64,000 nt of DNA from Elusimicrobiota bacterium (GTDB taxonomy: Bacteria > Elusimicrobiota > Elusimicrobia > UBA1565 > UBA9628), in NCBI GenBank assembly GCA_023249675.1, contig JAHFCE010000003.1:111785-175784 (forward strand), read 5' to 3'. Under the pieces are notes generated by a model, which ran no database searches, had not been told where the DNA came from, and saw only the letters and a program-made list of their open reading frames with translations. Shown here piece by piece: positions 39,225 to 60,837 of the stretch (within the stretch, counting starts at the first letter, position 1; every line of letters starts with the position of its first letter). The position numbers and the translations under genes are program-made.

Positions 39225-41255
39225 ATGAAGCCTGAAGAAATCCAGACGTGGGAGTCCTTCCTCAAGCGAACGCCCTTGTTCGCGGGCCTGTCGGCTGAGG
39301 ACTTGGGCAAGCTTGCCTCGCGTCTGCAGCTGCTGTCCCTGCCGAAGGGCGCGACTTTGTTCAAGCAAGGCGGCGAGTCCGACGCGCTGTACCTGATCGT
39401 CTCGGGCCATGCGCGCCGCTACCGCCTGACCGATGGGCGCGACGCGCTGGTGGCCTATCTCGGCCGCGGCGACATCGTCGGAGAGACGGGCCTGCTCACG
39501 AGCGCGCCGCGCTCTTCGACCGTTCGCGTGGACGCAACCAGCGAGCTGCTGAAGCTGCCGCGCAAGGATTTCGAAGACGTCCTGCGCGAACACCCGACCA
39601 TCCTGCGGCACCTGTCGCGCACGCTCGCCCACCGCCTCATCGAGGGCGGCCAGTCTTCGCCGCGCCCTTCTTCCGAGCAGGCCCGTCTCGTGGCGCTTGA
39701 CTGCGCTTTGCCGCGCAGCGAGCGGGCCTTGATCTCCTGGCGTCTTGGCGCCGAGCTGGCGGCGCAGACCCGGAAAAAAGTTCTTATCGTGGACCTGGCG
39801 GTCGAGCCCGGCGACATCGCGCGCGCCGCCGGCCTCAAGCCTTCGCCCGTGACCGAGACCGAGCTGCGCGGCGCGAATTTGCGCGACCCCGCCGCGCTGG
39901 CGGCGATGGCGCAGGAGCATCCATCGGGCGTGCGCGTTCTGTCGGTCTCGCCCGCCGCGCTCGGCGGCCGCCTGTTCAGCCAGCTGTACCTGTTCCTGAA
40001 CGCCGTGCGCGATAGCCACGAACTCGCCTTGCTGTGCTTGGGAGGGCCGCGCGGCGATGTCGAACGCGCAGCGCTCACCGAGGCCGATCTGATCCTGATG
40101 GCCGGCTGCGACGCGATGCGCCCGCAGTACCGCCACATGGAAGTCGAGGTGCCGCCGCTCGCTGAGGAGTCGCGCCGCCTCTTGAGGCTGTGGATCGGAG
40201 ATCTCGAACCCGAGGACGCTCCGCTGCTCATCGGAGCTGAGCGCGTCCTCGTGCCGTGGAGCGAGGCCGCGACCGAGGCCTATGAGCGCGACGGCGAGGC
40301 TGACGCCGCTTTCGCCCTCGAGCCGAAGGCGGCGAAAACGCTCGGCCGCCTGGCGCGTCGCATCGGCGGCGTCCAAGTGGGTCTGGCGCTGGGCACGGGC
40401 GCAGCGCTCGGCCATGCGGCGATCGGCGTGCTGAAAGTATTGAAACGCGAGGGCATTCCGGTGGATCTCATCGCCGGCACCTCCATGGGCTCCCTGATCG
40501 GGGGTTGCTATGCCGCCGGCTATGAGCCAGAGGAAATCGAGGAGCTTGTCCTGCGCATCGACAAGTCCTGGGTGTATGAGAATCTGTTCTGGGACCTCAC
40601 GATCCCGCGCTCGGGCTTCTTCGCGGGCGATACGATGCTGCGTTTTATCCGCTCTTACATGGGCTCGCGCGAGTTCGGCGACATGGACATTCCGTTCGCT
40701 TGCGTGGCCGCCGATATCGAGACCGGGGAGGAGGTCGTCCTCCGGCACGGCCGCGTTGCCGAGGCAATTCGCGCTTCGTGCGGCCTCCCCCTGATTTTTG
40801 AGCCGACCCAGCTGTCCGGGCGCTGGCTCGTTGACGGAGGCCTCGTCAATCCGGTGCCGACGCGCGTCATCGCCGATATGGGCGCTGACATCCTGCTCGC
40901 GGTCAACCTGACCTTGCCCGCCGGCGAGCGCAAGACGTCGGTGCACGAACGCCACAGTCGGCGCCTCTTGGATCAGCCGTTGTCATTGGAGACCTTGCGC
41001 CAGGCGGCGTTGCCCGTGCTGCCCAAGGCTTTCCGCGCGCCCAATTTTCTCGAGGTATTCTTCCAGATGATCTACACGATGGAGTACGAGGTGGCGCAGT
41101 CGCGTCTGGATTTGGCGCATGTGACCATGTTCCCCGATTTGAAGGGCTTCTCATGGACCGAGCTACATCGCGCCGGCGAGATCATTCGCGCGGGTGAGCT
41201 CGCGGCGGAAGAGGCGTTGCCGCGTCTTAAGGCCTTGATTCCCTCTCGACGTTGA
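39225..41255 (+). CDS. Cyclic-nucleotide-binding domain fused to a patatin-like phospholipase
   Basis: The N-terminal CAP-family cNMP-binding fold reads 'GGESDALYLIVSGHAR...GETGLL'. The C-terminal patatin has 'GLALGTGAALGHAAIGV', 'GTSMG' and 'VDGG'. Confidence 0.8.
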   Translation: MKPEEIQTWESFLKRTPLFAGLSAEDLGKLASRLQLLSLPKGATLFKQGGESDALYLIVSGHARRYRLTDGRDALVAYLGRGDIVGETGLLTSAPRSSTVRVDATSELLKLPRKDFEDVLREHPTILRHLSRTLAHRLIEGGQSSPRPSSEQARLVALDCALPRSERALISWRLGAELAAQTRKKVLIVDLAVEPGDIARAAGLKPSPVTETELRGANLRDPAALAAMAQEHPSGVRVLSVSPAALGGRLFSQLYLFLNAVRDSHELALLCLGGPRGDVERAALTEADLILMAGCDAMRPQYRHMEVEVPPLAEESRRLLRLWIGDLEPEDAPLLIGAERVLVPWSEAATEAYERDGEADAAFALEPKAAKTLGRLARRIGGVQVGLALGTGAALGHAAIGVLKVLKREGIPVDLIAGTSMGSLIGGCYAAGYEPEEIEELVLRIDKSWVYENLFWDLTIPRSGFFAGDTMLRFIRSYMGSREFGDMDIPFACVAADIETGEEVVLRHGRVAEAIRASCGLPLIFEPTQLSGRWLVDGGLVNPVPTRVIADMGADILLAVNLTLPAGERKTSVHERHSRRLLDQPLSLETLRQAALPVLPKAFRAPNFLEVFFQMIYTMEYEVAQSRLDLAHVTMFPDLKGFSWTELHRAGEIIRAGELAAEEALPRLKALIPSRR

Positions 41256-47036: not shown

Positions 47037-48173
47037 ATGAAGAAATTATTCATCGCCGTCGTCGCGCTGGTCGCGCTCAATGCCCAGGCCGACCCCGTTG
47101 CCGCCGGCCGCGCCCGCGCTCGGGAACTCGGCATCATCGTTGGCCGCATGACGCCCGGCAAACTCAACGCGATCACGGACGTCGCCGGCGTCCGGGTGGG
47201 CCACGTCACCGTGAGCCGGGGCGATGGTCCTCATGCGGCGCGCACCGGCGTGACCGCGATCCTGCCTCACGGCGGAGACCTCTGGAACGAGAAGGTGCCG
47301 GCCGCGACCTGGGTCTATAACGGCAACGGCGAAATGACGGGCGTTCTTTGGCTCAACACGCAGGGCGCCCTCGATGTCCCGCTTCTGCTCACCAACACGA
47401 TGAATATCCCGCGCGTGGCCGACGGCGCTGTCTCCTACATGCTCAAGCGCTACCCGGCCATCGGCAAAAGCGACGATGTGGTGATTCCGGTGGTGGGCGA
47501 GTGCGATGACTCGACTCTCAATGACGCCCGCGGCCGGCACGTGACGTCCGAGGACGCGATCTTGGCCATCGAGTCCGCCCAATCCGGCCCGGTCGCCGAG
47601 GGCTCGGTGGGCGCTGGCGCTGGCATGATCGCCTATGGCTTCAAGGCCGGCATCGGCACGGCCTCGCGGGTGTTATCGGCGCAAGACGGGGGCTGGACGA
47701 TCGGGGTTTTGGTCAACGCGAACATGGGCTGCTGCCGCGAAAACCTGACCATGGCGAACGCTCCGGTCGGCAAGGAGATCGGCGAGTTGCCGGTCAAGGC
47801 CTCGGACGGCTCCATCATCGTCGTGGTGGCGACCGATGCGCCGCTCGATCACCTCAAGCTTCAGCGGCTTGCTTCCAAGGCCGCCATGGGCCTGGCGCGG
47901 ACGGGAAGCACGGCCCGCCATGGGAGCGGCGACATCTTTCTCGCCTTCTCCACCGGCAATCGCATTCCCCACTATCCGAAGGGCCTAACTTACGCGATGA
48001 AGATCGTGGATGATGATCACTTAAATCCCCTGTTCGAGGCCGCCCAGGAGTCGACGGAAGAGGCGATCCTCAACGCCCTGACCACCGCGACGACCACGGC
48101 GGGCAGGGACGGCAACGTCGCTTACGCAATTCCACTCGATCGGCTGCGCGAAGTGATGAAAAAGCGCCCGTGA
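47037..48173 (+). CDS. Peptidase S58 (DmpA/OAT family aminopeptidase) with signal peptide
   Basis: 'ITDVAGVRVGH' and the self-processing 'G|S/T' region are characteristic of DmpA. Confidence 0.7.
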   Translation: MKKLFIAVVALVALNAQADPVAAGRARARELGIIVGRMTPGKLNAITDVAGVRVGHVTVSRGDGPHAARTGVTAILPHGGDLWNEKVPAATWVYNGNGEMTGVLWLNTQGALDVPLLLTNTMNIPRVADGAVSYMLKRYPAIGKSDDVVIPVVGECDDSTLNDARGRHVTSEDAILAIESAQSGPVAEGSVGAGAGMIAYGFKAGIGTASRVLSAQDGGWTIGVLVNANMGCCRENLTMANAPVGKEIGELPVKASDGSIIVVVATDAPLDHLKLQRLASKAAMGLARTGSTARHGSGDIFLAFSTGNRIPHYPKGLTYAMKIVDDDHLNPLFEAAQESTEEAILNALTTATTTAGRDGNVAYAIPLDRLREVMKKRP

Positions 48174-49564: not shown

Positions 49565-50623
49565 GTGAAGAAAACGCTTGTCGTCTTAGCGGCGCTTCTC
49601 CTGTGCCCCGCCGTCCAGGCCCGCAAACCAAAAATAAAAACCCTTCTCTCGGCTTTCGAAGCCGCAAAAACCGACGAGCGCATCCGTCTGGCCGCCGCTC
49701 TCGGCCGCAGGAAAAACAAAAAAACCACCGACGCCCTGCTCCTCGCCTTCGACGTCAAGCGCGGCGACCCGCGCGAAAGCGCCGCCTACGTGGACGCCCT
49801 TGGCCAAGCGGGCGATCCGCGCGCCGTCGAGCCGCTTGCCGCCGCTTGGGACTACCTCCGTTCCCTAATCCTTCCGATGGGCGGGCTCCCGGGGCAACTC
49901 CAGGTCCTGAGCGAGAAGATCCTCGACGCCCTGAGCCGTCTCGGCGGCGACCGGGCGGTGCGCGTTCTTTTTGAAGCGCTCGCCGATCCAGACCCGCGCG
50001 TGGCCCAAGAAGCCGTGCGCGGCCTCGGCCGTCTCCGGGTGAAGGACGCCGTCCCGGTTCTCCAGCAGAAGTTGGCGGCGGGCGCTTCGGGCAACCTCCT
50101 CCAGGCGATTTGTGAGGCCCTGGGCGACATCGGCGACAAGCGTGCCCTCTCCACTCTTGAGAAGTCGGCCGCGAATCCAGACACGCTCGTCGCGGCCGAG
50201 GTCTCCTACTCTCTCGTCAAGCTCGGCAAGAAGGAGGACCTGGTTCGCCTGCAGGGTTTCCTGGAGGGCGATTCCGGCGCGGGGGCCGCGGGCCTGCTCG
50301 CGGCCTACTACCTCGTCAAGCTCGATAAGGACGCGGGTCTTGAGTACCTCGAGAAAACGATGAAAAAGCGGGACAGCGCGCTGGCTCCCGTCGCGGCCGA
50401 GACCTTGGGCAAAACCGGCAATCCGCGCGCGGTCCTCGTTCTCATCGAGGTTCTCCAGGCGCCGGATTCCGCCGTGCGCCTCTCGGTGGCGCGCGCTTTG
50501 GGGCGCTTGGGCGGGCCGCGCGCGGTGACGGCCTTAAAGAAGCTGCGCGCCGACCCCGATCCCGGCGTGAGCGGCGCGGCCGTCAACAGCCTGAACGATC
50601 TTGGCGAAATCGACTTGAGATGA
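49565..50623 (+). CDS. Periplasmic HEAT-repeat (PBS-lyase HEAT-like) protein
   Basis: Signal peptide followed by repeated 'D..VR..A..ALG.lgd..A...L' units. Confidence 0.7.
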   Translation: MKKTLVVLAALLLCPAVQARKPKIKTLLSAFEAAKTDERIRLAAALGRRKNKKTTDALLLAFDVKRGDPRESAAYVDALGQAGDPRAVEPLAAAWDYLRSLILPMGGLPGQLQVLSEKILDALSRLGGDRAVRVLFEALADPDPRVAQEAVRGLGRLRVKDAVPVLQQKLAAGASGNLLQAICEALGDIGDKRALSTLEKSAANPDTLVAAEVSYSLVKLGKKEDLVRLQGFLEGDSGAGAAGLLAAYYLVKLDKDAGLEYLEKTMKKRDSALAPVAAETLGKTGNPRAVLVLIEVLQAPDSAVRLSVARALGRLGGPRAVTALKKLRADPDPGVSGAAVNSLNDLGEIDLR

Positions 50624-52824
50624 GCCGAGAGACGCGCATCGGCGACTGTTGGGGCGGCCTGGCTGCGATGCTCGTCGCCCTTCCCCAGGCCTTGGCTTTC
50701 GGCGTGGCGATTTTCGCCCCGCTGGGACCCGAGCGCGCGGCCGAAGGGGCTCTCGCCGGCCTCGTGGGCGCGGCCGCGCTCGGCATGGTGGCCGCCTGGC
50801 TGGGAGGCGCGCCGCGCCTGGTCTCAGCGCCCTGCGCGCCGGCCGCGGCGGTGCTGGGCGGCCTTGCCGCCGTGCTTGCCGCGCGCTATGGGCCTGAGCG
50901 AGCGGCGGCACTTCTGATGCTCACCGGCCTGTTCTCGGCTTTGCTCCAGCTCGCCTACGGCTTAGCGGGGGGAGGTCGCCTCATCAAATTTATTCCCTAC
51001 CCGGTCGTGACCGGCTATCTGAGCGGCGTCGCCGTGCTCATGGCGCTCAGCCAGCTGCCGCGCCTGCTGGCCTTGCCCGCGGGCGCCGGCCTCGCTGCCG
51101 GGCTCGCGTCTCCGTCCTCCTGGAGCGGGCCGGGCTTGATCGTGGGCCTAACGGCGATGTTCGCCATGGTCGTGGCCCCGCGCCTGACCAAGGCCGTTCC
51201 CGCGCCCGTCGTGGGGCTGGCCGCGGGTGTGACCGCGTACTGGGCGGCCAGCCTTGTCCATCCTGAATTGCGCACTGTGTCGGGCAACGCGCTCGTCGTC
51301 GGGCGTCTGCCGGGCGGCATCGCCGGGATGTGGTCGGCGCTGGGTTCGCGCTGGTCGGGCTTGAGCGGTTTTGACGCGGGCATGTTCAAGGCGGCGGCCA
51401 TGCCCGCGGCCACGTTATCGCTTCTTCTCTCCGTCGACACGCTCAAGACCTGCGTGGTCGTCGACACGCTCACGCGCTCGCGCCACGATTCTGATCGCGA
51501 ATTACGCGGCCAGGGCCTGGGCAACCTTGCCGCGGCTTTGCTCGGAGGGGCCGCGGGTGCTGGCACGATGGGGGCCACCCTGGTCAACATCAATGCGGGC
51601 GGGCGCACGCGTCTCTCCGGTGCGCTGGCCGGGGCCTTCACTGTGCTGACCCTTCTGCTGGCCGGCCCGCTCGTCGCCTGGGTGCCGGTGCCGGCGTTGG
51701 CCGGCATCCTGCTCATCGTGGCTTGGCGCATGTTCGACCGGAAAAGCCTTCGTCTTCTGAGACGCCGCTCGACCCAGCTTGATTTCGCCGTGAGCGCCGC
51801 CGTCATCGTCGCCGCCGTCAGCATCGATTTGATCGCCGCCGCGGGAATCGGCATCGGCCTGGCCGCGCTTCTCTTCCTGCGCGACCTCTCGCGCGGCTCC
51901 GTCGTGCGCCGCAAGGTCCGTGGCGACGCCGTGACCTCGCGTCAGCGCCGCCTGCCCGCCGAGCGCGAGGCCCTGCGCGAGTTGGGCTCGGCCGTCGTCC
52001 TCTGCGAGCTGCAGGGAAGCCTCTTTTTCGGCACCACGGACCAGCTGCTCAGCGAGCTCGACGCCGACCTCAAGACCTGCCGCTTCGTCATCCTCGACCT
52101 CAAGCGCGTGCAAAGCGTCGATTTCACCGCCGCGCACATGCTCAAGCAGATCGAGGACCGTCTGCACGAGCGCGGCGGCCGCCTGCTGCTGTGCCAGCTG
52201 CCGCAAAACCTGCCCACCGGCCAGGACCTCGAGTCCTATTTCGCCGAGGTGGGATTGGTCAAGCCCGAGCGCTTTGTCAGCGTTTTTGGCGAGCTCGACG
52301 CCGCCCTCGAGTGGGTCGAAGACCGGCTCCTGTCCGACGCGGGCCTGGCTCCGCCCGTTTCGGCGGCGCCGCTGGGCCTTCAAGACATCGAGCTGTTCCG
52401 CGAGCTCGACGCCGATGAGACGGCCTCCGTGCGCTCCATCCTGCGCGAGCTTTCCGCGCCCGCGGGTTCGGCCGTCTTTCGCCGCGGCGAGGCCGGCGAT
52501 GAGGTTTTTCTCATCCGCAAGGGCCGCGTGCGCATCCTCCTTCCCCTCGAGGGCGGCAAGGAGCATCACAAGGAACACCATGTGGCCACCTTCGGCCGGC
52601 GCGACTTCTTCGGCGAGGTCGCCTTCCTCGACCGGGGCGCTCGCACCGCCGACGCCGTGGCGCTGACCCCCACGGAGCTTTTCGCGCTGTCGCGCGCGCG
52701 CTTCAACGACCTGTCCCGCTCCCACCCCGCCTTGGGCGCCATGCTTTTTGCGCGCTTGTCGCACGCCCTGGCCCTGCGCCTGCGCCAGGCCGATGAGGAG
52801 CTGGGACTGCTCCACGACGCTTAG
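50620..52824 (+). CDS. SulP-family anion transporter with STAS domain and C-terminal cyclic-nucleotide-binding domain
   Basis: The SulP TM core is followed by a STAS domain ('VVLCELQGSLFFGTTDQL') and a cNMP-binding fold ('FRRGEAGDEVFLIRKGRVRI...FGEVAFL'). Confidence 0.8.
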   Translation: MSRETRIGDCWGGLAAMLVALPQALAFGVAIFAPLGPERAAEGALAGLVGAAALGMVAAWLGGAPRLVSAPCAPAAAVLGGLAAVLAARYGPERAAALLMLTGLFSALLQLAYGLAGGGRLIKFIPYPVVTGYLSGVAVLMALSQLPRLLALPAGAGLAAGLASPSSWSGPGLIVGLTAMFAMVVAPRLTKAVPAPVVGLAAGVTAYWAASLVHPELRTVSGNALVVGRLPGGIAGMWSALGSRWSGLSGFDAGMFKAAAMPAATLSLLLSVDTLKTCVVVDTLTRSRHDSDRELRGQGLGNLAAALLGGAAGAGTMGATLVNINAGGRTRLSGALAGAFTVLTLLLAGPLVAWVPVPALAGILLIVAWRMFDRKSLRLLRRRSTQLDFAVSAAVIVAAVSIDLIAAAGIGIGLAALLFLRDLSRGSVVRRKVRGDAVTSRQRRLPAEREALRELGSAVVLCELQGSLFFGTTDQLLSELDADLKTCRFVILDLKRVQSVDFTAAHMLKQIEDRLHERGGRLLLCQLPQNLPTGQDLESYFAEVGLVKPERFVSVFGELDAALEWVEDRLLSDAGLAPPVSAAPLGLQDIELFRELDADETASVRSILRELSAPAGSAVFRRGEAGDEVFLIRKGRVRILLPLEGGKEHHKEHHVATFGRRDFFGEVAFLDRGARTADAVALTPTELFALSRARFNDLSRSHPALGAMLFARLSHALALRLRQADEELGLLHDA

Positions 52825-54959
52825 AGCCGGACGCCCTGGCGCTTGAAGTAAGACGCGACGGCCTCGACGGCGAGGTACGTAAATCCCAGAACGTCGGCGT
52901 GCCCGGATAGCTTGGCAAGGCGCTTCAGCTTGCCGATGGTTTTGAGCGCGGCCCGGCGTCCGCCGCCGGCTTTTCTCCAATCTTGAACGTACCGCGCGCG
53001 GAACCATTCCATGGCATCCGTGGCGTCCATGTCCCGGATGGAGTCCTTGTCGTTGTCGTTCTCGAGGGGCAAACGTCGTAGAAAGGCCGCCTGCCGCTTG
53101 ACCCCGGCTTGATGGAGCCGCTCGAGTTTGCGCAAAAGCGGCGTGGGCTTGCCGAGAAGGTTGGAGAGGGCCGCGTTGCCGAGCGTGGGATTCCTGCCGG
53201 CGTCCAGGGAGAAGCTCTGCGTCCCCGGGTTCGTCTCGATGATGACGTAGTCTCCGTCCCGGCGCTTGGCGACGTCGAAGCCTCCGCTGAAATAGCGGCC
53301 TTTTTCGGGGAGCCTGTCCAGAAAACTTTCGATAAGCCGCTTGGCCTGGCTTTCCTCATCGGGCCGATAGTCCCAGCCGTAACGGAACCGAGAGTTCACG
53401 ACGTGCCCATCCAAGACGTCGACGCGAAATTCGATAAGCTCGCCCCTGCGGTTCTTCGCAAGGTCGAGCTTCTCCTGCACCAGGACGTCCCCGGGGCGGG
53501 CGATCAACGCGTGGATCACCGCCGTCCGCGAGGGGCCCTCCGTCATCAGACGCCTCAGCTCGGGATCGAGGGCCGAGATCGGATGGAGGCCCAGGAAGTC
53601 CTTGACCTTTTTCAGGTCGGAGAGGTAGTCGGCGGCCATCTCGTCCGGGTCGCTCAAAAAGGTGGCGACCATGGACGCGCTCTCGCGCGTGGCGTACGCC
53701 GTGCGGAACTTGATGAAAGCGCCCTTTGGGAACTTTTCACGGGACAGTCGGAAGAACTCCTTGACGAGACCCGCGACCTCGCGTTGACGTTCGTCCGCGC
53801 CGGCCTCGTCCGGATTGCCGATATATTCCTCGATGAGGCGCCGCACCTCGGCTTGGCGGCTCTTGAATGCCCCCGTCCGCTTCTTCACAAGAGCCTGACC
53901 GGTCAGTCCCTTGGCCATGAAAGAGGGATCCGCGGAGCGGACCCACGCGGATTCGGTGACCTTATCGAGGCGGGCCAAGAGCCGCCCTTGGCCTAACAGG
54001 GGATTGAGATCTCCTCGAACCAGAAAGGACTTGGGGGAGGGGGAAATAGGCAGGACAAGGCCCGGCAGTTTCACGGGCGTGGAATGATCGGCAAGGTCTT
54101 CGGCATAGAACACGCGGGCCCCGTAAAGCCTCTCGTTGTCCCGCATGTGCTCCTCATTGACTGGACGCCATCCGGGGAGCACGATTGTCACGCCCTTCTC
54201 GGCTGCCTGGCGGATCGCGGCGAGAGTTCGCGGGGGCGTGCCGCGGGGCGTGGGCGCGTTCGTCCAAAGCTCGAAATCGCTGGGCTCTGGATTCTCCGGC
54301 GCCGCGCGACTGGAGCGCTTGCCATCGCGCCAGACGTAGATCGTGTGCAGCGTCGCCGAGGTGCGCTCGATGGAGCGCACTCCTCGGACTCGGCTCAAAC
54401 TCTTGAGGTCGCGGGGGTTCGCCTCGCCCGGCAGGGCCTTGCCCGGTTCAGGTCGACCAAGAACGCGGAAGCCCCTTTTCGCCAGCCGTGCCGCGACTGT
54501 GCGAGCACCCTCCGCCGAGAGCCGCGGGCTGAGCACGGCGCTTGCCAAGCGGGTCTGCGCCAGGGGAAAGTGCCGGGCGGGCTCTTCCAAAAACATCAAC
54601 GCGCGCTGACCGGGAGGCGCGGGTTCGACGTCTTCTAAGGAGAAGGAGGCGGTCTGATCGAAAAGCGCGGCTGCGGACTGATGCTGAGCCGCCAGGGGGT
54701 CATTGCGTTTCTGCGCGAGAACGCCAGCCGGCGCGACGTTGACGCGGGGCGCAGGCACAGTCGGCGCCGCGACGAAGAGAGTTGGAGAGACGGGGGGCGC
54801 GTACGGCGCCAAGCCGACGGCCGGGACGATCGGCGCAAGCGCGATTGTCGGCGCCGCGCCGCCGCCGACCTCCGCCGCCGGCAGCGCCGCGAGAGCGGCG
54901 CCGGCCCACGTCCGAAGCAGGAGGGAAAGGACGACTGCGATCAGGGACCGAACTCTCAT
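52821..54959 (-). CDS. Signal-peptide/anchor protein with a C-terminal ATP-grasp-like domain
   Basis: N-terminal hydrophobic segment, then a Pro/Ala linker. The C-terminus ('IEFRVDVLDGHVV...DYVIIETNPG') resembles the ATP-grasp 'E.N..PG' motif. Confidence 0.55.
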   Translation of the reverse strand: MRVRSLIAVVLSLLLRTWAGAALAALPAAEVGGGAAPTIALAPIVPAVGLAPYAPPVSPTLFVAAPTVPAPRVNVAPAGVLAQKRNDPLAAQHQSAAALFDQTASFSLEDVEPAPPGQRALMFLEEPARHFPLAQTRLASAVLSPRLSAEGARTVAARLAKRGFRVLGRPEPGKALPGEANPRDLKSLSRVRGVRSIERTSATLHTIYVWRDGKRSSRAAPENPEPSDFELWTNAPTPRGTPPRTLAAIRQAAEKGVTIVLPGWRPVNEEHMRDNERLYGARVFYAEDLADHSTPVKLPGLVLPISPSPKSFLVRGDLNPLLGQGRLLARLDKVTESAWVRSADPSFMAKGLTGQALVKKRTGAFKSRQAEVRRLIEEYIGNPDEAGADERQREVAGLVKEFFRLSREKFPKGAFIKFRTAYATRESASMVATFLSDPDEMAADYLSDLKKVKDFLGLHPISALDPELRRLMTEGPSRTAVIHALIARPGDVLVQEKLDLAKNRRGELIEFRVDVLDGHVVNSRFRYGWDYRPDEESQAKRLIESFLDRLPEKGRYFSGGFDVAKRRDGDYVIIETNPGTQSFSLDAGRNPTLGNAALSNLLGKPTPLLRKLERLHQAGVKRQAAFLRRLPLENDNDKDSIRDMDATDAMEWFRARYVQDWRKAGGGRRAALKTIGKLKRLAKLSGHADVLGFTYLAVEAVASYFKRQGVRL

Positions 54960-55119
54960 CGCCTCAGTATGCCCGGCGCACCCCGCGCCCGCGAGAGTCT
55001 TGCGGCCCAAACCGTCTAGGTCTGATATCTGAACGCAAACGCCCCGAAAGACCCATGCCTTTTAAGTCGGTTGCTGGTAGCATACGCTGTCGCTGAAATC
55101 CAAACTTTGAGGTTTTAAA

Positions 55120-55479
55120 ATGAAAAATATCCGTCTCCTGATGGCGTCAGTGCTGTTCGCTTCACTGGTCATGATCGGCTCGGCCTCCGCCCAGTCGGAC
55201 GCTGATTTCGCCCGGAAGCTCACGGAGGGCATGGGGGCGATGGTGAAAAAGGCGAAGGAACCCGCGACTGTCCAGGGAACGCCCGTCCGTCCCGTCGCAA
55301 AGAGTGTGTCGAGCGGCGATGGGGTCATCTGCGATTGCTATGCGGGGGGGCTCTGGTATGTCTATCTCGGGAACGTCGCCGGAGACACGAAGCAGGACGC
55401 TTTCCGCGAGTGTCGGCGCGTGTCCAAGAAACGGGGCTTCGACGACAACTGCAACATCATCGTCAATAATTGTCAGTGA
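55120..55479 (+). CDS. Small secreted Cys-containing protein
   Basis: Signal peptide, four Cys residues and a GAGG Shine-Dalgarno. It overlaps the next gene by 10 bp. Confidence 0.5.
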   Translation: MKNIRLLMASVLFASLVMIGSASAQSDADFARKLTEGMGAMVKKAKEPATVQGTPVRPVAKSVSSGDGVICDCYAGGLWYVYLGNVAGDTKQDAFRECRRVSKKRGFDDNCNIIVNNCQ

Positions 55480-57206
55480 AACATCGAGCCCCCATTGCCG
55501 GGCTCATCTCGCTGATCCTCGCCTCATCCTCTTTTGCCCAGACCGTGGGCGCCGTTGCGGCGCCAAACTTCCCCGGAGGCGTCCCGGCGCCAGTCATCCC
55601 CGGCGCGCCGGCGCTCGGCGGCGGCTTCTCGATGCCGCTGCCTTCAACATTCGCGCTGACTCCCACGATCACGCCGGCGCTCTCTGTCTCGGGGTCCGCA
55701 GCTCCACGCGCCGCTTCCATCAACCCTTCGATGGCTGCCCCCCGGCGTGCGCGCCGCCTCAAAGAAGACGCGGCAACGGCGGCGGTCAGCAACCCTCGAT
55801 CCGCCCCGCGCGCGCTTCGGACACTGTTCGACGGGAGTTCCGACGCCGACGAAGAATCCCCGGTCGCACCCGGAGTTCCGTTCAATTGGGTTCAGCAGAT
55901 GATCGGACAGTCCGCGGCGTCGAATACGAAACTGCAGGACGCCGTTCGGCGCAAGGGATTCGCGAAAGCGGCGGTCAATTCAGAGGTGCTGAAAAAACAC
56001 AACAACCGCTACACCGTCGAGCTCCCGGTGGGGCCAGTCATGAACCAGGAGGGGACGGAGCAATGCTGGGTCTACGCGGGCCAGAACGTGCTGCGTTCGA
56101 TGCTGATCGCCGCGGGCAAGGTCCCGAAGAATTTTGAGTTTTCTCATACCTACCTGCATTTCTTCAACATGCTCGAAAAAGCGAATCACCAGCTGGAAAC
56201 GGCCGCGGTGCGAATCTATAAACGCGGGAGGAAATCGGAGACCGCGACCAGTCGACGCAAGGCTCTCGTTCCTCGCATGGAGGACAACGGTGAATACGCC
56301 TATTTTGCCTTCCTCGTGTCCAAATACGGCTTGGTTCCGAAGAGCGCGATGAAGAATACGGTTTCCTCCGAGAAAACCGCCCTTTTGAATGAGGAGCTCA
56401 ATGCGCGCCTGGCTCTTGTCGAAGCGGAGATGATGGCCAACGCGCGGCGGCACAAGGCTGGACGCGCGCCTGACCTTGCGATGGAAATCTTGGAGCGCGG
56501 TCGGTCGCGTATCTGGAATATCCTGGCCGCGCATCTCGGCATCCCGCCCACGCAGTTCGCATATCGCCCGAACCCATCAAAGAGACCTCGGACGTTCACC
56601 CCGCGTAAATTCGCCCAAAAGTTCGTGGGGTTCGACCCGAATGACTATGTCTTGGTCGCGAGCTTCCCGGGCAAAAAGACGGGGACGACGTACGAGATCA
56701 AGGATTCGGCCATTGGCGCGTCGTCGCCGGGCCGCCCGCGCTCCAACGTGCGTTTTCTGCAAGTGGCTCTGGAGCGGCTCGAGGTGTTGGCCGTTGCGGC
56801 GATTGCGGGCGGGCAACCGGTCTATTTCGCGGCGGACCACTACAACGACATCCACTTGGAAAGCGGGATCATGCACCCGGAGATTTACAATCGCGCGGCT
56901 CTCTATCAGTCAGCCGATGAGGGACGCTTGTCCCGCGCGGAAGCATTCTATCTCGGACGCCTCCGCACGCGGCATGCAATGGCGTTGACGGGTTTCGACC
57001 GCCCGGATAACGATAAGCCGGTCGTTAAATTCAAGGTGGAGAACTCCTGGGGCGCGGACGTCGGCAGCCGCGGCGTTTTCCACCTCTACCGCGAGTGGTT
57101 CCATCGGAACGTGCTGGAGATACTCGTCCACCGCAGGTTTCTCAGCCGGCCCGAAAGGAAATCCTGGAACAACGCCATTCAGGTGAAGAATCCCGAATTA
57201 GGTTGA
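55470..57206 (+). CDS. Secreted papain-superfamily cysteine peptidase (C1, aminopeptidase C/bleomycin hydrolase-like) with a disordered Pro/Ala-rich N-terminal region
   Basis: 'QEGTEQCWVYAG' carries the catalytic Cys. 'KVENSWGADVG' plus an upstream His form the C-terminal catalytic motif. Confidence 0.7.
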   Translation: MSVKHRAPIAGLISLILASSSFAQTVGAVAAPNFPGGVPAPVIPGAPALGGGFSMPLPSTFALTPTITPALSVSGSAAPRAASINPSMAAPRRARRLKEDAATAAVSNPRSAPRALRTLFDGSSDADEESPVAPGVPFNWVQQMIGQSAASNTKLQDAVRRKGFAKAAVNSEVLKKHNNRYTVELPVGPVMNQEGTEQCWVYAGQNVLRSMLIAAGKVPKNFEFSHTYLHFFNMLEKANHQLETAAVRIYKRGRKSETATSRRKALVPRMEDNGEYAYFAFLVSKYGLVPKSAMKNTVSSEKTALLNEELNARLALVEAEMMANARRHKAGRAPDLAMEILERGRSRIWNILAAHLGIPPTQFAYRPNPSKRPRTFTPRKFAQKFVGFDPNDYVLVASFPGKKTGTTYEIKDSAIGASSPGRPRSNVRFLQVALERLEVLAVAAIAGGQPVYFAADHYNDIHLESGIMHPEIYNRAALYQSADEGRLSRAEAFYLGRLRTRHAMALTGFDRPDNDKPVVKFKVENSWGADVGSRGVFHLYREWFHRNVLEILVHRRFLSRPERKSWNNAIQVKNPELG

Positions 57207-57210
57207 GCGC

Positions 57211-58293
57211 CTACTTAAAAACAGACTTTTCGATCCAGGCGCTTACGTTTGGATTGGTCAGTCGCATAAGCTCTGGTTCGTAAAATGTGTAGGCGACAAA
57301 TTCGGCGAAGGCCTCGCTCGGTCCACCCAGCATCGAGTAGAGGGAGGGGAAGCCGAGCTTTTGGGCATAACCATTGACCCGCTCGTTGATTGAAGTAACG
57401 AACGCGGCTCTTTCTGGACCCTCCGGCATAGTCGCGGCGATCGTAAACTGAGAGTAATACCAGTCTTTCATCTCGCCGAGTTCCTTTGCGTCGACGCCCA
57501 CAAGCGACCACTCCCCGTCGGAACCAAGATTAAATCCTGTCAATTGGAGAAATTCGGGCAAGATGGAGGTATCTGGAAGATCCTGTTCGTCTCCATCGAA
57601 TATATGCGCAAGCTCGTGCAGAAGACCCAGGTCCGCCATATCGTGAGTCATTCCCGTGGTTCTGATGTGCGTACGCTTGCTCATGAAAAGTCGGTCCGTC
57701 ATATTGATGCTCTTGTCAAAGGAGTCATACCATGCAGAATTCATCTTCGCTTGCCACTGCCCTGAGTCCACGTCGAACTCCGCCCTTTGGGTATAGCGGA
57801 AAATAGTCGTATAACCGTTTCTGTTGACTTTTTGGAAGAAGGCGGTGAGCCGTGGATCGTTGACCAAGCCTGAGAACACCGGGCTAAAAAGATCGATTTC
57901 CTGGGGAGTCCACTCCTTGGGACCAGCGATCTGGCAGAACTGAGGTGGGGCCCATGGCGTCGCGCAGGTCCGGCCGGGGGAAAGAGAGAATGTCCCGAAG
58001 GTTGCTTGGACTGGCATGACAGGCGCCGGGATCGAGAGGTCAAAGGCCTTCGCGGACAACATGCGGATGTCATCGGCGCGAACCTGCGCCCGCTCTTTTT
58101 CCCCAGGGCTATCATCGCGCGGGATGTACGGCAGCACGACAGCCGCTGTCCCAGTGGCCGGAGCGATCTCGGCTGGGAGTTCACCTTCCGCCTTCAACTG
58201 CTCCAAAGCGTTTTCTTGGGCCGAGGCGGCAAGTAAAGAGGACCGAGCAATTAAAAGAGCCAACGCGACTGAGATCATGTTCTTCCTCCGCAC
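57211..58293 (-). CDS. Secreted putative zinc metallopeptidase (HEXXH)
   Basis: Signal peptide; 'LLHELAHIFD' is an HExxH motif, and a downstream 'EAFAEF' supplies a candidate third ligand. Confidence 0.5.
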   Translation of the reverse strand: MRRKNMISVALALLIARSSLLAASAQENALEQLKAEGELPAEIAPATGTAAVVLPYIPRDDSPGEKERAQVRADDIRMLSAKAFDLSIPAPVMPVQATFGTFSLSPGRTCATPWAPPQFCQIAGPKEWTPQEIDLFSPVFSGLVNDPRLTAFFQKVNRNGYTTIFRYTQRAEFDVDSGQWQAKMNSAWYDSFDKSINMTDRLFMSKRTHIRTTGMTHDMADLGLLHELAHIFDGDEQDLPDTSILPEFLQLTGFNLGSDGEWSLVGVDAKELGEMKDWYYSQFTIAATMPEGPERAAFVTSINERVNGYAQKLGFPSLYSMLGGPSEAFAEFVAYTFYEPELMRLTNPNVSAWIEKSVFK

Positions 58294-58446
58294 TCTGTAT
58301 TCGGGGGTGCCAAGTTATTGTACGGCAAACCGGGACATCCGCCATGAGTCCTAGGTCCTAGGAGTGGGGCCTCTTTGGACCTGTGCCGTTCGGGGGAATT
58401 AGGACCAAAGGACGCGCCGGCGTCCTTCCCTTGATCTATTCTCGAT

Positions 58447-59049: not shown

Positions 59050-60837
59050 ATGATCCTGCTCCTTCTCTCCGTCTTCCTCTCGGTTCCCAGCCTCGCCGCC
59101 GCTCCGACCGCCAAGGATGCCGCCACCTTCATGACTCGCGCCGAGGCCTCCCTTGACGAACTCGGTCGCCGCTCGAGCTTCTCCTCCTGGGCCCAGCAGA
59201 CCGACATCAACTACACCACCGAGTGGCTCGCCTCCGACGCCGACCGCGCCTTCGCCGCCGAGGCCGCCAAGCTCGCTCACGAGGCGCGCCGATTCGACCG
59301 CCTTCAGCTTCCGGCCGACCTCAAGCGCAAGTTCCTGCTCCTCAAGCTTGCGGTGGACTCTCCCTCCCCGCCCGACCTGAAAGAACAAAAAGAGCTGTCC
59401 GACGCCAAGGTCTGGCTCGAAGGGACCTACGGCAAGGGCAAGTATTGCCCGACTCCCGACAAGTGCCTGACCTTGGACGACATGGAGGACGTCCTCAAGG
59501 AGTCCCGCGACCCGAAGACGCTCCTCGACCTCTGGACCGGCTGGCGCAAAATTTCCGTTCCCATGCGCCCGCGCTACCGGCGCTTCGTTGAGCTCTCCAA
59601 CAAGGGCGCGCGGGACCTTGGTTTCAAAGACACCGCCGACCTGTGGCGCTCCGGCTACGACATGACGCCTGAGGCGTTCTCCGCCGAGCTCGACCGGCAG
59701 TGGCTGCAGATCAAGCCGTTGTATGAGGCTCTCCACGCCTACGTGCGCCGGCGCTTGACCGAGAAGTACGGCAGCGATGTCGTGGGCCCCGACGGCCTCA
59801 TTCCTGCGCATCTTCTTGGCAACATGTGGGGGCAATCCTGGGAGAACATTTACGATCTCGTCGCTCCCCCCAAGAGCAAACCCGCCTTCGACCTCACTGA
59901 GCGCCTGAAGGCCGCCAAGCTCGACGAGAAAACCATGGTGCAGTATGGCGAGAGGTTCTTCACCTCGATGGGCTTCGATCCCTTGCCCGCGACTTTTTGG
60001 GAACGCTCCATGCTGACGCGGCCCCGCGACCGCGAGGTCGTCTGCCACGCTTCGGCCTGGGACGTCGAAAGCGGCCAGGACCTGCGCATCAAGATGTGCA
60101 TCAAGATCAATGCCGAGGATTTCGTCACCATCCACCACGAGCTCGGCCACAATTTTTATCAGCGCGCGTATGAAAAGCAGCCGTACTTCTTCCGCGGCTC
60201 CGCCAACGACGGCTTCCACGAGGCACTGGGCGACACCATCGCGCTCGCGGTGACGCCGGAGTACCTGAAGGAGGTCGGGCTCATTGACTCTGTTCCCGGC
60301 CCGGAGGGGGACATCGACCTTCTCTTGAAGATGGCGCTTGAGCGGGTGGCGTTCCATCCCTTCGGCCTCCTGGTCGATCAGTGGCGCTGGGGCGTGTTTT
60401 CCGGCGCTATCGCGCCGGAAAACTACAACGACGCCTGGTGGGCCCTTGTTAAGAAGTATCAGGGCTTGAAGCCGCCGGTCGCCCGCACCGAGGCCGACTT
60501 CGACCCGGGCGCCAAGTACCACATCCCGGGCAACACCCCGTACGCGCGCTACTTCCTAGCACAGCTCTACCAGTTCCAGTTCTACCGCGCTTTGTGCCGG
60601 CAGCATGGGCACACCGGCCCGCTGCACCGCTGCTCGTTCTACGGGGACAAAGCCGCCGGCAAGCGCTTGGGCGACATGATGGCGATGGGCTCGAGCCGCC
60701 CGTGGCCCGACGCGCTTGAGGCCGCGACGGGCCAGCGCCGGATGGACGCGACGGCGATCCTGGAGTACTTCGCGCCGCTCAAGGCCTGGCTCGACGAGCA
60801 GAACAAGGGGCAAAGTGTTGGCTGGAAGGCGGACTGA
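59050..60837 (+). CDS. M2-family peptidyl-dipeptidase (angiotensin-converting-enzyme-like) with signal peptide
   Basis: 'HHELGHNFYQ' with a downstream 'HEALGD' matches the ACE motifs HHEMGH...EAIGD. Confidence 0.8.
   Translation: MILLLLSVFLSVPSLAAAPTAKDAATFMTRAEASLDELGRRSSFSSWAQQTDINYTTEWLASDADRAFAAEAAKLAHEARRFDRLQLPADLKRKFLLLKLAVDSPSPPDLKEQKELSDAKVWLEGTYGKGKYCPTPDKCLTLDDMEDVLKESRDPKTLLDLWTGWRKISVPMRPRYRRFVELSNKGARDLGFKDTADLWRSGYDMTPEAFSAELDRQWLQIKPLYEALHAYVRRRLTEKYGSDVVGPDGLIPAHLLGNMWGQSWENIYDLVAPPKSKPAFDLTERLKAAKLDEKTMVQYGERFFTSMGFDPLPATFWERSMLTRPRDREVVCHASAWDVESGQDLRIKMCIKINAEDFVTIHHELGHNFYQRAYEKQPYFFRGSANDGFHEALGDTIALAVTPEYLKEVGLIDSVPGPEGDIDLLLKMALERVAFHPFGLLVDQWRWGVFSGAIAPENYNDAWWALVKKYQGLKPPVARTEADFDPGAKYHIPGNTPYARYFLAQLYQFQFYRALCRQHGHTGPLHRCSFYGDKAAGKRLGDMMAMGSSRPWPDALEAATGQRRMDATAILEYFAPLKAWLDEQNKGQSVGWKAD

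What the first reader, a model, noticed from the sequence alone, without database searches (positions are those of the whole stretch)
52821..54959. ATP-grasp-like domain on a protein with an N-terminal signal/anchor and Pro/Ala linker
ATP-grasp ligases are cytoplasmic, ATP-dependent enzymes. Here a ~710-aa protein starts with a hydrophobic segment and a long Pro/Ala-rich linker and ends in an ATP-grasp-like 'D..IIETNPG' region. Either the N-terminus is an N-in membrane anchor holding a cytoplasmic ligase at the membrane (for example for peptide or poly-amino-acid modification of an envelope component), or this is a non-catalytic ATP-grasp fold.
Basis: inference. Interest (0 to 1): 0.6.

Follow-up and report, generated by a model that had tools for sequence, protein, structure and literature searches.

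The report
Exported ATP-grasp ligase of unknown target
This gene encodes what looks like an intact ATP-using ligase that carries an export signal, which is odd because bacteria are not thought to have ATP outside the cytoplasm, and it belongs to an undescribed family of about 140 such proteins found mostly in predatory Bdellovibrio-like bacteria and Elusimicrobia.

Summary
Window 52821-54959 (minus strand) is a real, conserved 712-aa gene. It has a Sec-type signal peptide (aa 1-21), a disordered Pro/Ala-rich linker (aa 22-~110), a small alpha/beta domain, a complete three-subdomain ATP-grasp module (aa ~245-590) and a helical C-terminal domain.

The catalytic set K417, Q495, E510-x-R512, D562 and E575-x-N577 is nearly invariant in 142 sequences. 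D562/E575/N577 align to E. coli DdlB D257/E270/N272.

A single N-in anchor places the ligase outside the cytoplasm, not inside. The active site is conserved, so a dead fold is unlikely.

Signal-peptide-like N-termini occur in about 50-56 of 77 complete relatives. Relatives from Oligoflexia and Bdellovibrionaceae add aldehyde-dehydrogenase and GNAT domains behind the same signal.

Best reading: an exported ATP-dependent amide ligase acting where ATP is available, probably in or at other cells. Target and ATP source are unknown. It is not a strict R2K-clade member. I rate it a new variant of a known kind.

The parts
52821..54959 (-). Whole coding sequence, 712 aa plus stop at 52821-52823. Its stop overlaps the stop of the convergent SulP-STAS-cNMP transporter gene (50620-52824, +).
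54962..54965 (-). GAGG Shine-Dalgarno, 2 nt upstream of the ATG at 54957-54959
54897..54959 (-). Sec-type signal peptide, aa 1-21 (MRVRSLIAVVLSLLLRTWAGA). The predicted cleavage AGA|A comes from inspection only.
   Evidence: SignalP was not available.
54630..54896 (-). Pro/Ala/Val-rich low-complexity linker, aa 22-110, predicted disordered. Present in the three closest relatives (P0002, P0003, P0004); P0024 shows a similar Pro/Ala-rich N-terminal stretch.
54270..54557 (-). [not shown]
53925..54227 (-). Pre-ATP-grasp (substrate-side) subdomain, aa ~245-345. Family motifs are G-V-x-L-H, R-G-x-x-N-P and (N/D)-K-x-x-E (K333/E336). The query has Pro at position 304, where 100 of 109 relatives have His.
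53190..53924 (-). ATP-grasp catalytic module (RAGNYA plus protein-kinase-like subdomains, with helical inserts), aa ~346-590
53709..53711 (-). K417, at the end of the predicted RAGNYA strand (FIKF). Predicted ATP-phosphate-binding Lys; 120/121 in the family.
53466..53486 (-). VLVQEKL predicted hinge strand. Q495 is kept in 130/135.
53418..53432 (-). EFRVD, predicted first strand of the kinase-like subdomain. E510 is kept in 135/135 and R512 in 136/137.
53223..53285 (-). GGFDVAKRRDGDYVIIETNPG, the last two strands. D562, E575 and N577 align to E. coli DdlB D257, E270 and N272.
52824..53189 (-). C-terminal all-helical domain, aa 591-712, with family motifs G-x-P-T-P-L and W-x-R-x-R-Y. No informative structural match.

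Best explanation
The gene encodes a catalytically competent ATP-grasp carboxylate-amine (amide-bond-forming) ligase that is exported by the Sec pathway.

After translocation, the signal peptide is probably cleaved after Ala21. The 90-residue Pro/Ala linker is a flexible spacer. The folded part (alpha/beta domain, then pre-ATP-grasp, RAGNYA and kinase-like subdomains, then a helical domain) sits outside the producer's cytoplasm.

There it would do standard ATP-grasp chemistry. K417, Q495 and E510 hold ATP. D562, E575 and N577 hold Mg2+. A substrate carboxylate is phosphorylated to an acyl-phosphate, and an amine attacks it to form an amide. R512, R526 and the pre-ATP-grasp motifs would bind substrate.

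The periplasm is not thought to contain ATP. Relatives carry NAD(P)- and acyl-CoA-dependent domains (ALDH, GNAT) behind the same kind of signal. So the most likely place of action is one where cytoplasmic cofactors are available, that is, in or at another cell (prey, host or lysing neighbour). On this reading it is a secreted effector-type peptide or protein ligase.

Shown: the gene, its conservation, the fold and the active-site conservation. Inferred from heuristics: export signals across the family. Inferred only: cleavage site, substrate class, place of action and ATP source.

For: Profiles: R2K_2 and R2K_3 match the query at E 5e-4 to 3e-3. 26 of 61 relatives match R2K_3 and 16 match R2K_2. 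P0028 passes the R2K_3 gathering score.

Active site: the catalytic residues are nearly invariant. They sit in the predicted strands where the ATP-grasp template puts them (against the template in PMC4431377). D562/E575/N577 align to DdlB D257/E270/N272.

Export: the query has n-h-c architecture. 50 of 77 N-terminally complete relatives pass a strict hydrophobic-core test, and about 6 more look like signal peptides by eye. Positive-inside asymmetry holds in 60/74.

Cofactor argument: long forms are signal + ALDH (E 1e-10 to 1e-24) + this module, and P0049 adds GNAT.

Taxa: named members come from Oligoflexia, Bdellovibrionaceae and Elusimicrobiota MAGs. From my own knowledge, not tested here, cultured Bdellovibrio-type bacteria are predators.

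Precedent for a periplasm-targeted ATP-dependent enzyme: DNA ligase Lig E (PMC10799422).
Against: No signal-peptide predictor could be run, so export rests on heuristics.

About a quarter of complete relatives lack an obvious signal. Some of these may have wrong start calls, and some may be genuinely cytoplasmic.

No conserved gene neighbourhood, secretion-system link, immunity gene or substrate gene was seen in nine loci. That gives no independent support for an effector role.

Nothing shows that this window's organism is a predator or symbiont.

The query has Pro at position 304, where 100/109 relatives have His. That may weaken this particular copy.

The first ~230 residues are not shared by most of the family.

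No biochemical data exist for any member.
Confidence: 0.42

Rival explanations
1. Periplasmic envelope-modifying ligase. The N-terminal segment stays uncleaved as an inner-membrane anchor (N-in). The Pro/Ala stretch acts as a TonB/TolA-like periplasm-spanning spacer. The ATP-grasp domain then amidates or adds amino acids to a peptidoglycan, lipoprotein or outer-membrane component of the producer itself, using periplasmic ATP or another phosphoryl donor.
For: A 19-residue Kyte-Doolittle window over aa 6-24 averages 1.97, so an uncleaved anchor cannot be excluded. The anchor, Pro-rich spacer and C-terminal domain layout resembles TonB (my own knowledge, not tested here). D-Ala-D-Ala ligases are among the top structural neighbours. 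Lig E shows that periplasm-targeted ATP-dependent enzymes exist.
Against: R16 interrupts the hydrophobic stretch after 11 residues and is followed by a textbook c-region, RT(W/Q)AGA|A, in all three close homologues. Most relatives have no Pro/Ala spacer and have short signal-peptide-like uncharged spans (median 18 aa). No source of periplasmic ATP is known. This reading is even harder for the ALDH and GNAT fusions, which need NAD(P) and acyl-CoA. No envelope-biogenesis genes are conserved nearby.
Confidence: 0.25
2. Cytoplasmic (or cytoplasmic-face) ligase. Either the hydrophobic N-terminus is not a working export signal, or translation starts downstream (for example at Met121), so the enzyme meets ATP in the usual place.
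For: ATP-grasp enzymes characterised so far in bacteria are cytoplasmic (my own knowledge; RloC and RimK are described that way in PMC11957051). An in-frame Met121 exists just after the linker. About a quarter of complete relatives show no signal. The N-terminal 110 codons evolve under relaxed constraint.
Against: The signal plus linker stays in frame in four lineages, with only in-frame indels. GAGG precedes the ATG at 54959. Signal-like N-termini recur in about 65-73% of complete relatives from very different lineages. Their charge asymmetry predicts N-in/C-out in 60 of 74 and the opposite in only 1. A single N-in anchor cannot leave the C-terminal domain in the cytoplasm.
Confidence: 0.13
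3. Non-enzymatic or ATP-independent use of the fold outside the cell. Examples are a nucleotide or ligand-binding module, an assembly chaperone like eukaryotic Cdc123, or an enzyme running a hydrolytic or reverse reaction alongside the exported peptidases encoded next to it.
Against: Near-invariance of every ATP- and Mg-binding residue across 142 sequences is what selection for catalysis predicts. The peptidase neighbourhood is not conserved in the orthologous loci.
Confidence: 0.1

Closest known systems
R2K clade of ATP-grasp enzymes (Pfam R2K_3 PF14243, R2K_2 PF18299; Cdc123 = R2K.1; Burroughs et al. 2015, PMC4431377)
   Different: The query scores below the gathering cut-off (18-21 vs 26 bits). 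The N-terminal half does not match the R2K models. [quoted passage not shown] No second K/R is conserved after the strand-2 Lys. It keeps ExN, not the ExGD of R2K.3. It carries a Sec signal, whereas the secretion proposed for bacterial Cdc123 was through T6SS or T4SS.
RimK / LysX / ArgX and D-Ala-D-Ala ligase / DcsG (amino-acid and peptide ATP-grasp ligases)
   Different: 9-18% identity. No NCBIfam or Pfam membership. Large helical inserts and an extra ~120-residue helical C-terminal domain. An extra N-terminal domain. An export signal; from my own knowledge, those enzymes are cytoplasmic.
[quoted passage not shown]
   Same: Functional analogy only. It is an ATP-dependent enzyme with an N-terminal leader that directs it out of the cytoplasm, so it raises the same question of where the ATP comes from.
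   Different: Unrelated fold and chemistry. Lig E works through a covalent enzyme-adenylate, whereas ATP-grasp enzymes use a non-covalent acyl-phosphate intermediate.
Metazoan C7orf58 (CPED1) secreted TTL-like ATP-grasp fused to a PC-esterase (PMC2824669)
   Same: An ATP-grasp ligase domain predicted to be secreted and to modify surface polymers or proteins.
   Different: It is eukaryotic, where the secretory pathway contains ATP, belongs to the TTL clade and has a different architecture.

Membership tests
ATP-grasp superfamily | Three-subdomain fold (pre-ATP-grasp, RAGNYA, protein-kinase-like) | tested here: met
   [not shown]
ATP-grasp superfamily | [quoted passage not shown] | tested here: met
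   K417 is kept in 120/121. It lies at the end of predicted strand 310-314 of the model, which is aa 414-418.
ATP-grasp superfamily | Acidic residue in the penultimate strand and ExN at the end of the last strand | tested here: met
   D562 135/137, E575 124/136 (plus 10 Asp), N577 135/136. hhalign pairs them with DdlB D257, E270 and N272.
ATP-grasp superfamily | [quoted passage not shown] | tested here: met
   R512 is kept in 136/137 within EFRVD, which is predicted strand 406-412 of the model.
ATP-grasp superfamily | [quoted passage not shown] | tested here: inconclusive
   K/R333 is conserved in 113/113 and lies between the two subdomains in sequence. Its position relative to the ATP site could not be checked because model coordinates are not exposed.
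ATP-grasp superfamily | ATP binding and ATP-dependent ligation | not testable with these tools
   This needs biochemistry.
R2K clade (PMC4431377) | Score at or above the Pfam gathering threshold for R2K_2 or R2K_3 | tested here: not met
   The query scores 18.4-20.7 bits against cut-offs of 26.2-26.3. Relative P0028 scores 28.6 bits.
R2K clade (PMC4431377) | Second conserved Lys/Arg in the loop just after the strand-2 Lys, replacing the linker Lys, which is absent | tested here: not met
   Positions 418-435 have no basic residue conserved across the family. R419 is not conserved across the family, and R425 occurs in only 10 of 109 relatives. A basic residue at 333 is conserved in the linker.
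R2K.3 family | ExGD in place of ExN in the last strand | tested here: not met
   The query has IIETNPG, and N577 is kept in 135/136.
Sec (type I) signal peptide | Positive n-region, 7-15-residue hydrophobic h-region, polar c-region with small residues at -3 and -1 | tested here: met
   MRVR / SLIAVVLSLLL / RTWAGA|A. The pattern is conserved in P0002 and P0003. This is inspection only.
Sec (type I) signal peptide | Call by a trained predictor (SignalP, DeepTMHMM) and discrimination from a signal anchor | not testable with these tools
   No predictor is installed. A 19-residue hydropathy window of 1.97 leaves an uncleaved anchor possible.
Lipoprotein / Tat signals | Lipobox Cys, or twin-arginine motif | tested here: not met
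   The protein has no Cys at all, and its n-region is RVR, not RR-x-F-L-K.
   [not shown]

The most novel reading that the evidence does not exclude
This is the founding example of a previously undescribed family of Sec-exported, catalytically active ATP-grasp ligases. Some members are fused to NAD(P)-dependent aldehyde-dehydrogenase and GNAT domains. Bdellovibrio-like predators and Elusimicrobia would release them to ligate amino acids or peptides onto targets inside or on other cells, using the victim's ATP. On this reading it is a new class of Sec-dependent effector enzymes. Alternatively, it would be evidence that usable ATP exists in the bacterial periplasm.
Probability: 0.3. Interest if true: 0.75.

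Novelty: new variant of a known kind. Interest (0 to 1): 0.6.

Why it matters
ATP-grasp ligases are textbook cytoplasmic enzymes, and the bacterial periplasm is generally taken to lack ATP. Here a whole family keeps every ATP- and Mg-binding residue while carrying export signals, and some members drag NAD(P)- and acyl-CoA-dependent domains along. That points to one of two things. These may be enzymes delivered to work inside other cells, which would be a new effector chemistry in predatory bacteria. Or there may be an unrecognised extracytoplasmic ATP supply, the question already raised by the periplasmic DNA ligase Lig E.

Either answer can be tested with simple reagents: export reporters, the purified mature domain and active-site mutants. 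In practical terms, the family has no Pfam or NCBIfam model of its own, and its members are annotated 'hypothetical protein' or 'aldehyde dehydrogenase family protein'.

Tried and rejected
- AlphaFold with the 3-sequence alignment gave pLDDT 42 and was unusable. It became reliable only with 61 sequences.
- The word-indexed homologue search found 3-5 proteins, whether queried with the full protein, the linker-less protein or the profile. The low-complexity linker and the 8000-candidate filter probably limited it. The exhaustive search was needed.
- PDB sequence searches with the protein and with profiles gave nothing significant. The best relevant hit was the microviridin ligase 5ig8, at the two motif strands, with E 0.4.
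- Genome and metagenome scans found only 1 and 2 loci. Two earlier attempts failed because the alignment had no stretch conserved enough to search with.
- The afdb50 fold library was not available.
- Gene-neighbourhood analysis of nine loci found no conserved partner.
- PADLOC gave no hit, and PHROGs gave only weak hits to families of unknown function. I therefore dropped a defence-system or phage reading.
- I tested whether the Pro/Ala linker is homologous to the similar-looking linker of the neighbouring C1 peptidase. It is not (BLASTP E 2.7). The resemblance is compositional only.
- I tested whether a basic pI is a family trait pointing to a polyanionic substrate. It is not: the query has pI 10.0, but the family ranges from 5.0 to 10.0.
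- I suspected a paralogue next to P0011 in L009. It is not one.
- Promoter and terminator scans around the gene were uninformative.
- Literature searches found no description of a Sec-exported bacterial ATP-grasp family in the held library. Iyer et al. 2009 could not be read.


Full report
**1. What is there**

The window has an ORF on the minus strand from 52821 to 55010 (729 aa from a TTG). It is the better start. A GAGG Shine-Dalgarno lies at 54962-54965, and the homologues P0002 (84-85% identical) and P0003 (58-61%) begin at the same Met.

The gene is real. An exhaustive HMMER search of 1.84 billion cluster representatives finds 140 relatives at E<=1e-3 and 55 at E<=1e-30. Codon-level comparison with the P0002 gene shows third-position-biased change in aa 111-712 (50/42/118 differences at codon positions 1/2/3). 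Change in the first 110 codons is relaxed but in frame (16/12/18).

The stop codon overlaps the stop of a convergent SulP-STAS-cNMP transporter gene.

**2. N-terminus and linker**

Residues 1-21 read MRVR / SLIAVVLSLLL / RTWAGA. That is a positive n-region, an 11-residue hydrophobic core broken by Arg16, and a polar c-region with Ala at -3 and -1.

P0002 and P0003 keep the same pattern (RTQAGA, RIQAGA). There is no Cys in the whole protein, so there is no lipobox. There is no twin-arginine motif either.

Residues 22-~110 are Ala/Pro/Val-rich (24/15/11%). They have pLDDT below 50 in both models. The three closest relatives (P0002-P0004) have the same kind of linker, and P0024 shows a similar stretch.

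I could not run SignalP. A 19-residue hydropathy window of 1.97 means an uncleaved anchor is not excluded. In either case the charge distribution puts the N-terminus in the cytoplasm and the rest of the protein outside it.

**3. The ATP-grasp call**

Pfam gives only sub-threshold hits to R2K_2 and R2K_3 at aa 508-582 (E 5e-4 to 3e-3; 18-21 bits against cut-offs of 26). NCBIfam and PDB sequence searches give nothing significant.

Evidence from the rest of the family is stronger. 26 of 61 short-form relatives match R2K_3 and 16 match R2K_2, with best E about 2e-6. P0028 passes the R2K_3 gathering score (28.6 bits).

The first AlphaFold run, with three sequences, was useless (pLDDT 42). With a 61-sequence alignment the model of aa 105-712 reaches pLDDT 91.3 and pTM 0.90.

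- Foldseek agrees: Ddl, PsnB and DcsG at E~1e-5, in alignments of about 400 columns against ~300-residue targets.
- The viral library gives phage ATP-grasp proteins, giant-virus Cdc123 and TTLs.

**4. Is it catalytic?**

I aligned all 142 sequences to the family HMM and counted residues.

| Residue | Conservation |
|---|---|
| K417 | 120/121 |
| T/S424 | 113/116 |
| D/E426 | 101/106 |
| Q495 | 130/135 |
| E510 | 135/135 |
| R512 | 136/137 |
| R526 | 136/138 |
| D562 | 135/137 |
| E575 | 124/136 (plus 10 Asp) |
| N577 | 135/136 |
| G569, G579, S582 | strongly conserved |

In the model these residues sit where the ATP-grasp template of Burroughs et al. (PMC4431377) puts them:

- K417 is at the end of a RAGNYA strand.
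- Q495 is in the strand I read as the hinge (VLVQE).
- D562 is in the penultimate strand.
- E575-x-N577 is at the end of the last strand.

A profile comparison with E. coli DdlB aligns GGFDV...IIETNP to DdlB 254-273. That pairs D562, E575 and N577 with D257, E270 and N272. From my own knowledge, those are DdlB's Mg/ATP ligands.

The pre-ATP-grasp subdomain has its own conserved motifs: G-V-x-L-H304, R-G-x-x-N319-P, and (N/D)-K333-x-x-E336, with a basic residue at 333 in 113/113 and an acidic residue at 336 in 113/113.

This is the pattern expected of an active enzyme. One caveat is specific to this copy. Codon 304 is CCT (Pro), where 100 of 109 relatives, including P0002, have His.

**5. Export is a family trait**

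Of 77 relatives that look N-terminally complete, 50 pass a strict hydrophobic-core criterion. About six more have obvious signal-like N-termini on inspection.

Among the 74 sequences with such a core (any that start with Met, whether or not N-terminally complete), the N-flank is more positive than the C-flank in 60, equal in 13 and less positive in 1. The uncharged span has a median of 18 residues. This predicts N-in/C-out topology with spans of signal-peptide length.

Named members come from Elusimicrobiota MAGs (P0003, P0004) and from Oligoflexia and Bdellovibrionaceae MAGs (P0036, P0045, P0049, P0072, P0111).

About 25 relatives are ~1000-1200 aa long. The eight I scanned are mostly signal + aldehyde-dehydrogenase domain + this module (Pfam Aldedh E 1e-10 to 1e-24 in seven of eight). 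P0049 adds an N-terminal GNAT acetyltransferase. So ATP-, NAD(P)- and acyl-CoA-dependent domains all sit behind export signals.

**6. Context**

In the window the gene is flanked as follows:

- the SulP transporter (convergent);
- a divergent pair made of a small Cys-rich exported ORF (55120-55479) and an exported C1-like peptidase (55470-57206);
- further along, an exported HExxH protein (57211-58293), an M2 peptidase (59050-60837) and a spermine-synthase-like protein.

In the P0002 locus, the M2 peptidase, spermine-synthase-like gene and the convergent downstream gene are in the same arrangement, but a HigB/HTH toxin-antitoxin pair replaces the peptidase pair. The loci of P0003, P0005, P0006, P0011, P0028, P0045 and P0046 share no neighbours.

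The gene therefore appears to be solitary. Context says nothing about its substrate.

**7. Mechanism and alternatives**

Shown: a conserved gene, an ATP-grasp fold and an intact active site. Supported by heuristics only: export signals across the family.

Inferred: the enzyme performs ATP-dependent acyl-phosphate formation and amide ligation outside the producer's cytoplasm. The periplasm is not known to supply ATP, and the fused relatives also need NAD(P) and acyl-CoA. I therefore think it most likely acts where cytoplasmic cofactors are available, that is, in or at other cells. This is consistent with the Bdellovibrionota bias and with the earlier proposal that bacterial R2K-type ATP-grasp proteins act in conflicts. 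Confidence is about 0.42.

The main rival is a TonB-like tethered periplasmic enzyme that modifies the producer's own envelope (0.25). Lig E shows that periplasm-targeted ATP-dependent enzymes exist.

A cytoplasmic location (0.13) conflicts with the topology evidence. A non-catalytic role (0.10) conflicts with the residue conservation.

**8. Comparison with known families**

The protein works like an amide-forming ATP-grasp ligase of the RimK/LysX/Ddl type. Its nearest profiles are the R2K families.

It is not a strict R2K member:

- the query scores below the gathering cut-off;
- no second Lys/Arg is conserved after the strand-2 Lys;
- a conserved basic residue (K/R333) lies in the linker, where R2K proteins have none;
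- the last strand has ExN, not the ExGD of R2K.3.

The family has no Pfam or NCBIfam model of its own. Its members are annotated 'hypothetical protein', 'aldehyde dehydrogenase family protein' or, for one remote member, 'ATP-grasp domain-containing protein'.

I found no paper in the held library that describes Sec-exported bacterial ATP-grasp enzymes. The nearest conceptual precedents are the secreted metazoan C7orf58 ATP-grasp and the T6SS/T4SS-delivered bacterial Cdc123 proposed by Burroughs et al..

**9. Verdict**

- Novelty: a new variant of a known kind.
- Interest: 0.6. The compartment paradox is genuine and holds across the family. Function, substrate and even export still rest on computation alone.

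Noticed in passing
family level (P0005-P0135); equivalent spot in the window protein is about aa 118-125, window ~54585-54608: 47 of 74 relatives with a signal-like N-terminus have a Cys within 25 residues after the hydrophobic core, usually as C-x-x-L-(L/F). Cys is otherwise very rare in these proteins (0.21%, so about 5% expected by chance). The motif occurs in both short forms and ALDH-fused long forms, and it is not a lipobox. The window protein has no Cys at all. The function is unexplained; it could be a disulfide, a tether or a sorting motif.
   Followed up: partly
window 54048-54050 (-), codon 304: The query has Pro (CCT) where 100 of 109 family members, including the 84%-identical orthologue, have His in the motif G-V-x-L-H. 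It may be a real variant that weakens this copy, or an assembly error. The identical Logan-derived protein P0001 is 100% identical to the query, so it presumably has it too.
   Followed up: partly
long-form relatives P0015, P0028, P0033, P0036, P0037, P0049, P0072: In P0015 the fused aldehyde-dehydrogenase domain keeps the catalytic Cys (GQDCIAP aligns with the GQICMAI of an ALDH structure), and several relatives keep an F-T-G-x-x-x-x-G NAD-type motif. The position of the ALDH 'ELGG' motif reads (F/L)G(A/S)G(M/L)NP in these seven relatives. From my own knowledge, that Glu is the general base for thioester hydrolysis. An ALDH without it, next to an acyl-phosphate-forming ATP-grasp, could be a carboxylate reductase, analogous to ProB-ProA.
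   Followed up: partly
window 55470-57206 (+): A C1-like (aminopeptidase C / bleomycin-hydrolase type) cysteine peptidase (Peptidase_C1_2, E 1.6e-66). It has a signal peptide and its own ~120-residue Pro/Ala/Ser-rich linker. The design matches the ATP-grasp protein, but the linkers share no sequence similarity (E 2.7). This family is usually cytoplasmic (my own knowledge), so it is a second 'cytoplasmic-type enzyme behind a signal plus linker' in the same region.
   Followed up: partly
window 55120-55479 (+): A small (119 aa) ORF with a signal peptide and a Cys-rich C-terminal half, no Pfam hit. Its end overlaps the start of the C1 peptidase ORF by 10 nt. A sigma-70-like promoter match lies at 55093-55121. 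It could be a secreted inhibitor or partner of the peptidase.
   Followed up: no
window 57211-58293 (-): A 360-aa protein with a signal peptide and an HELAH (HExxH) zinc-peptidase-type motif, but no Pfam or NCBIfam match. Together with the S58 peptidase (47037-48173, with signal peptide), the C1-like peptidase and the M2 (ACE-like) peptidase (59050-60837), it makes this stretch unusually rich in exported peptidases.
   Followed up: no
window 50620-52824 (+): A SulP anion transporter fused to STAS and a C-terminal cyclic-nucleotide-binding domain. A second cNMP-binding protein, fused to a patatin phospholipase, is at 39225-41255. The transporter's stop codon overlaps the stop codon of the ATP-grasp gene on the other strand.
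   Followed up: no
L001 9075-9705 compared with window ~55100-58300: In the orthologous locus of the 84%-identical protein, a HigB/HTH toxin-antitoxin pair occupies the place of the window's small ORF, C1 peptidase and HExxH protein. The flanking M2 peptidase and spermine-synthase-like genes are syntenic. This is a variable slot next to the ATP-grasp gene.
   Followed up: no
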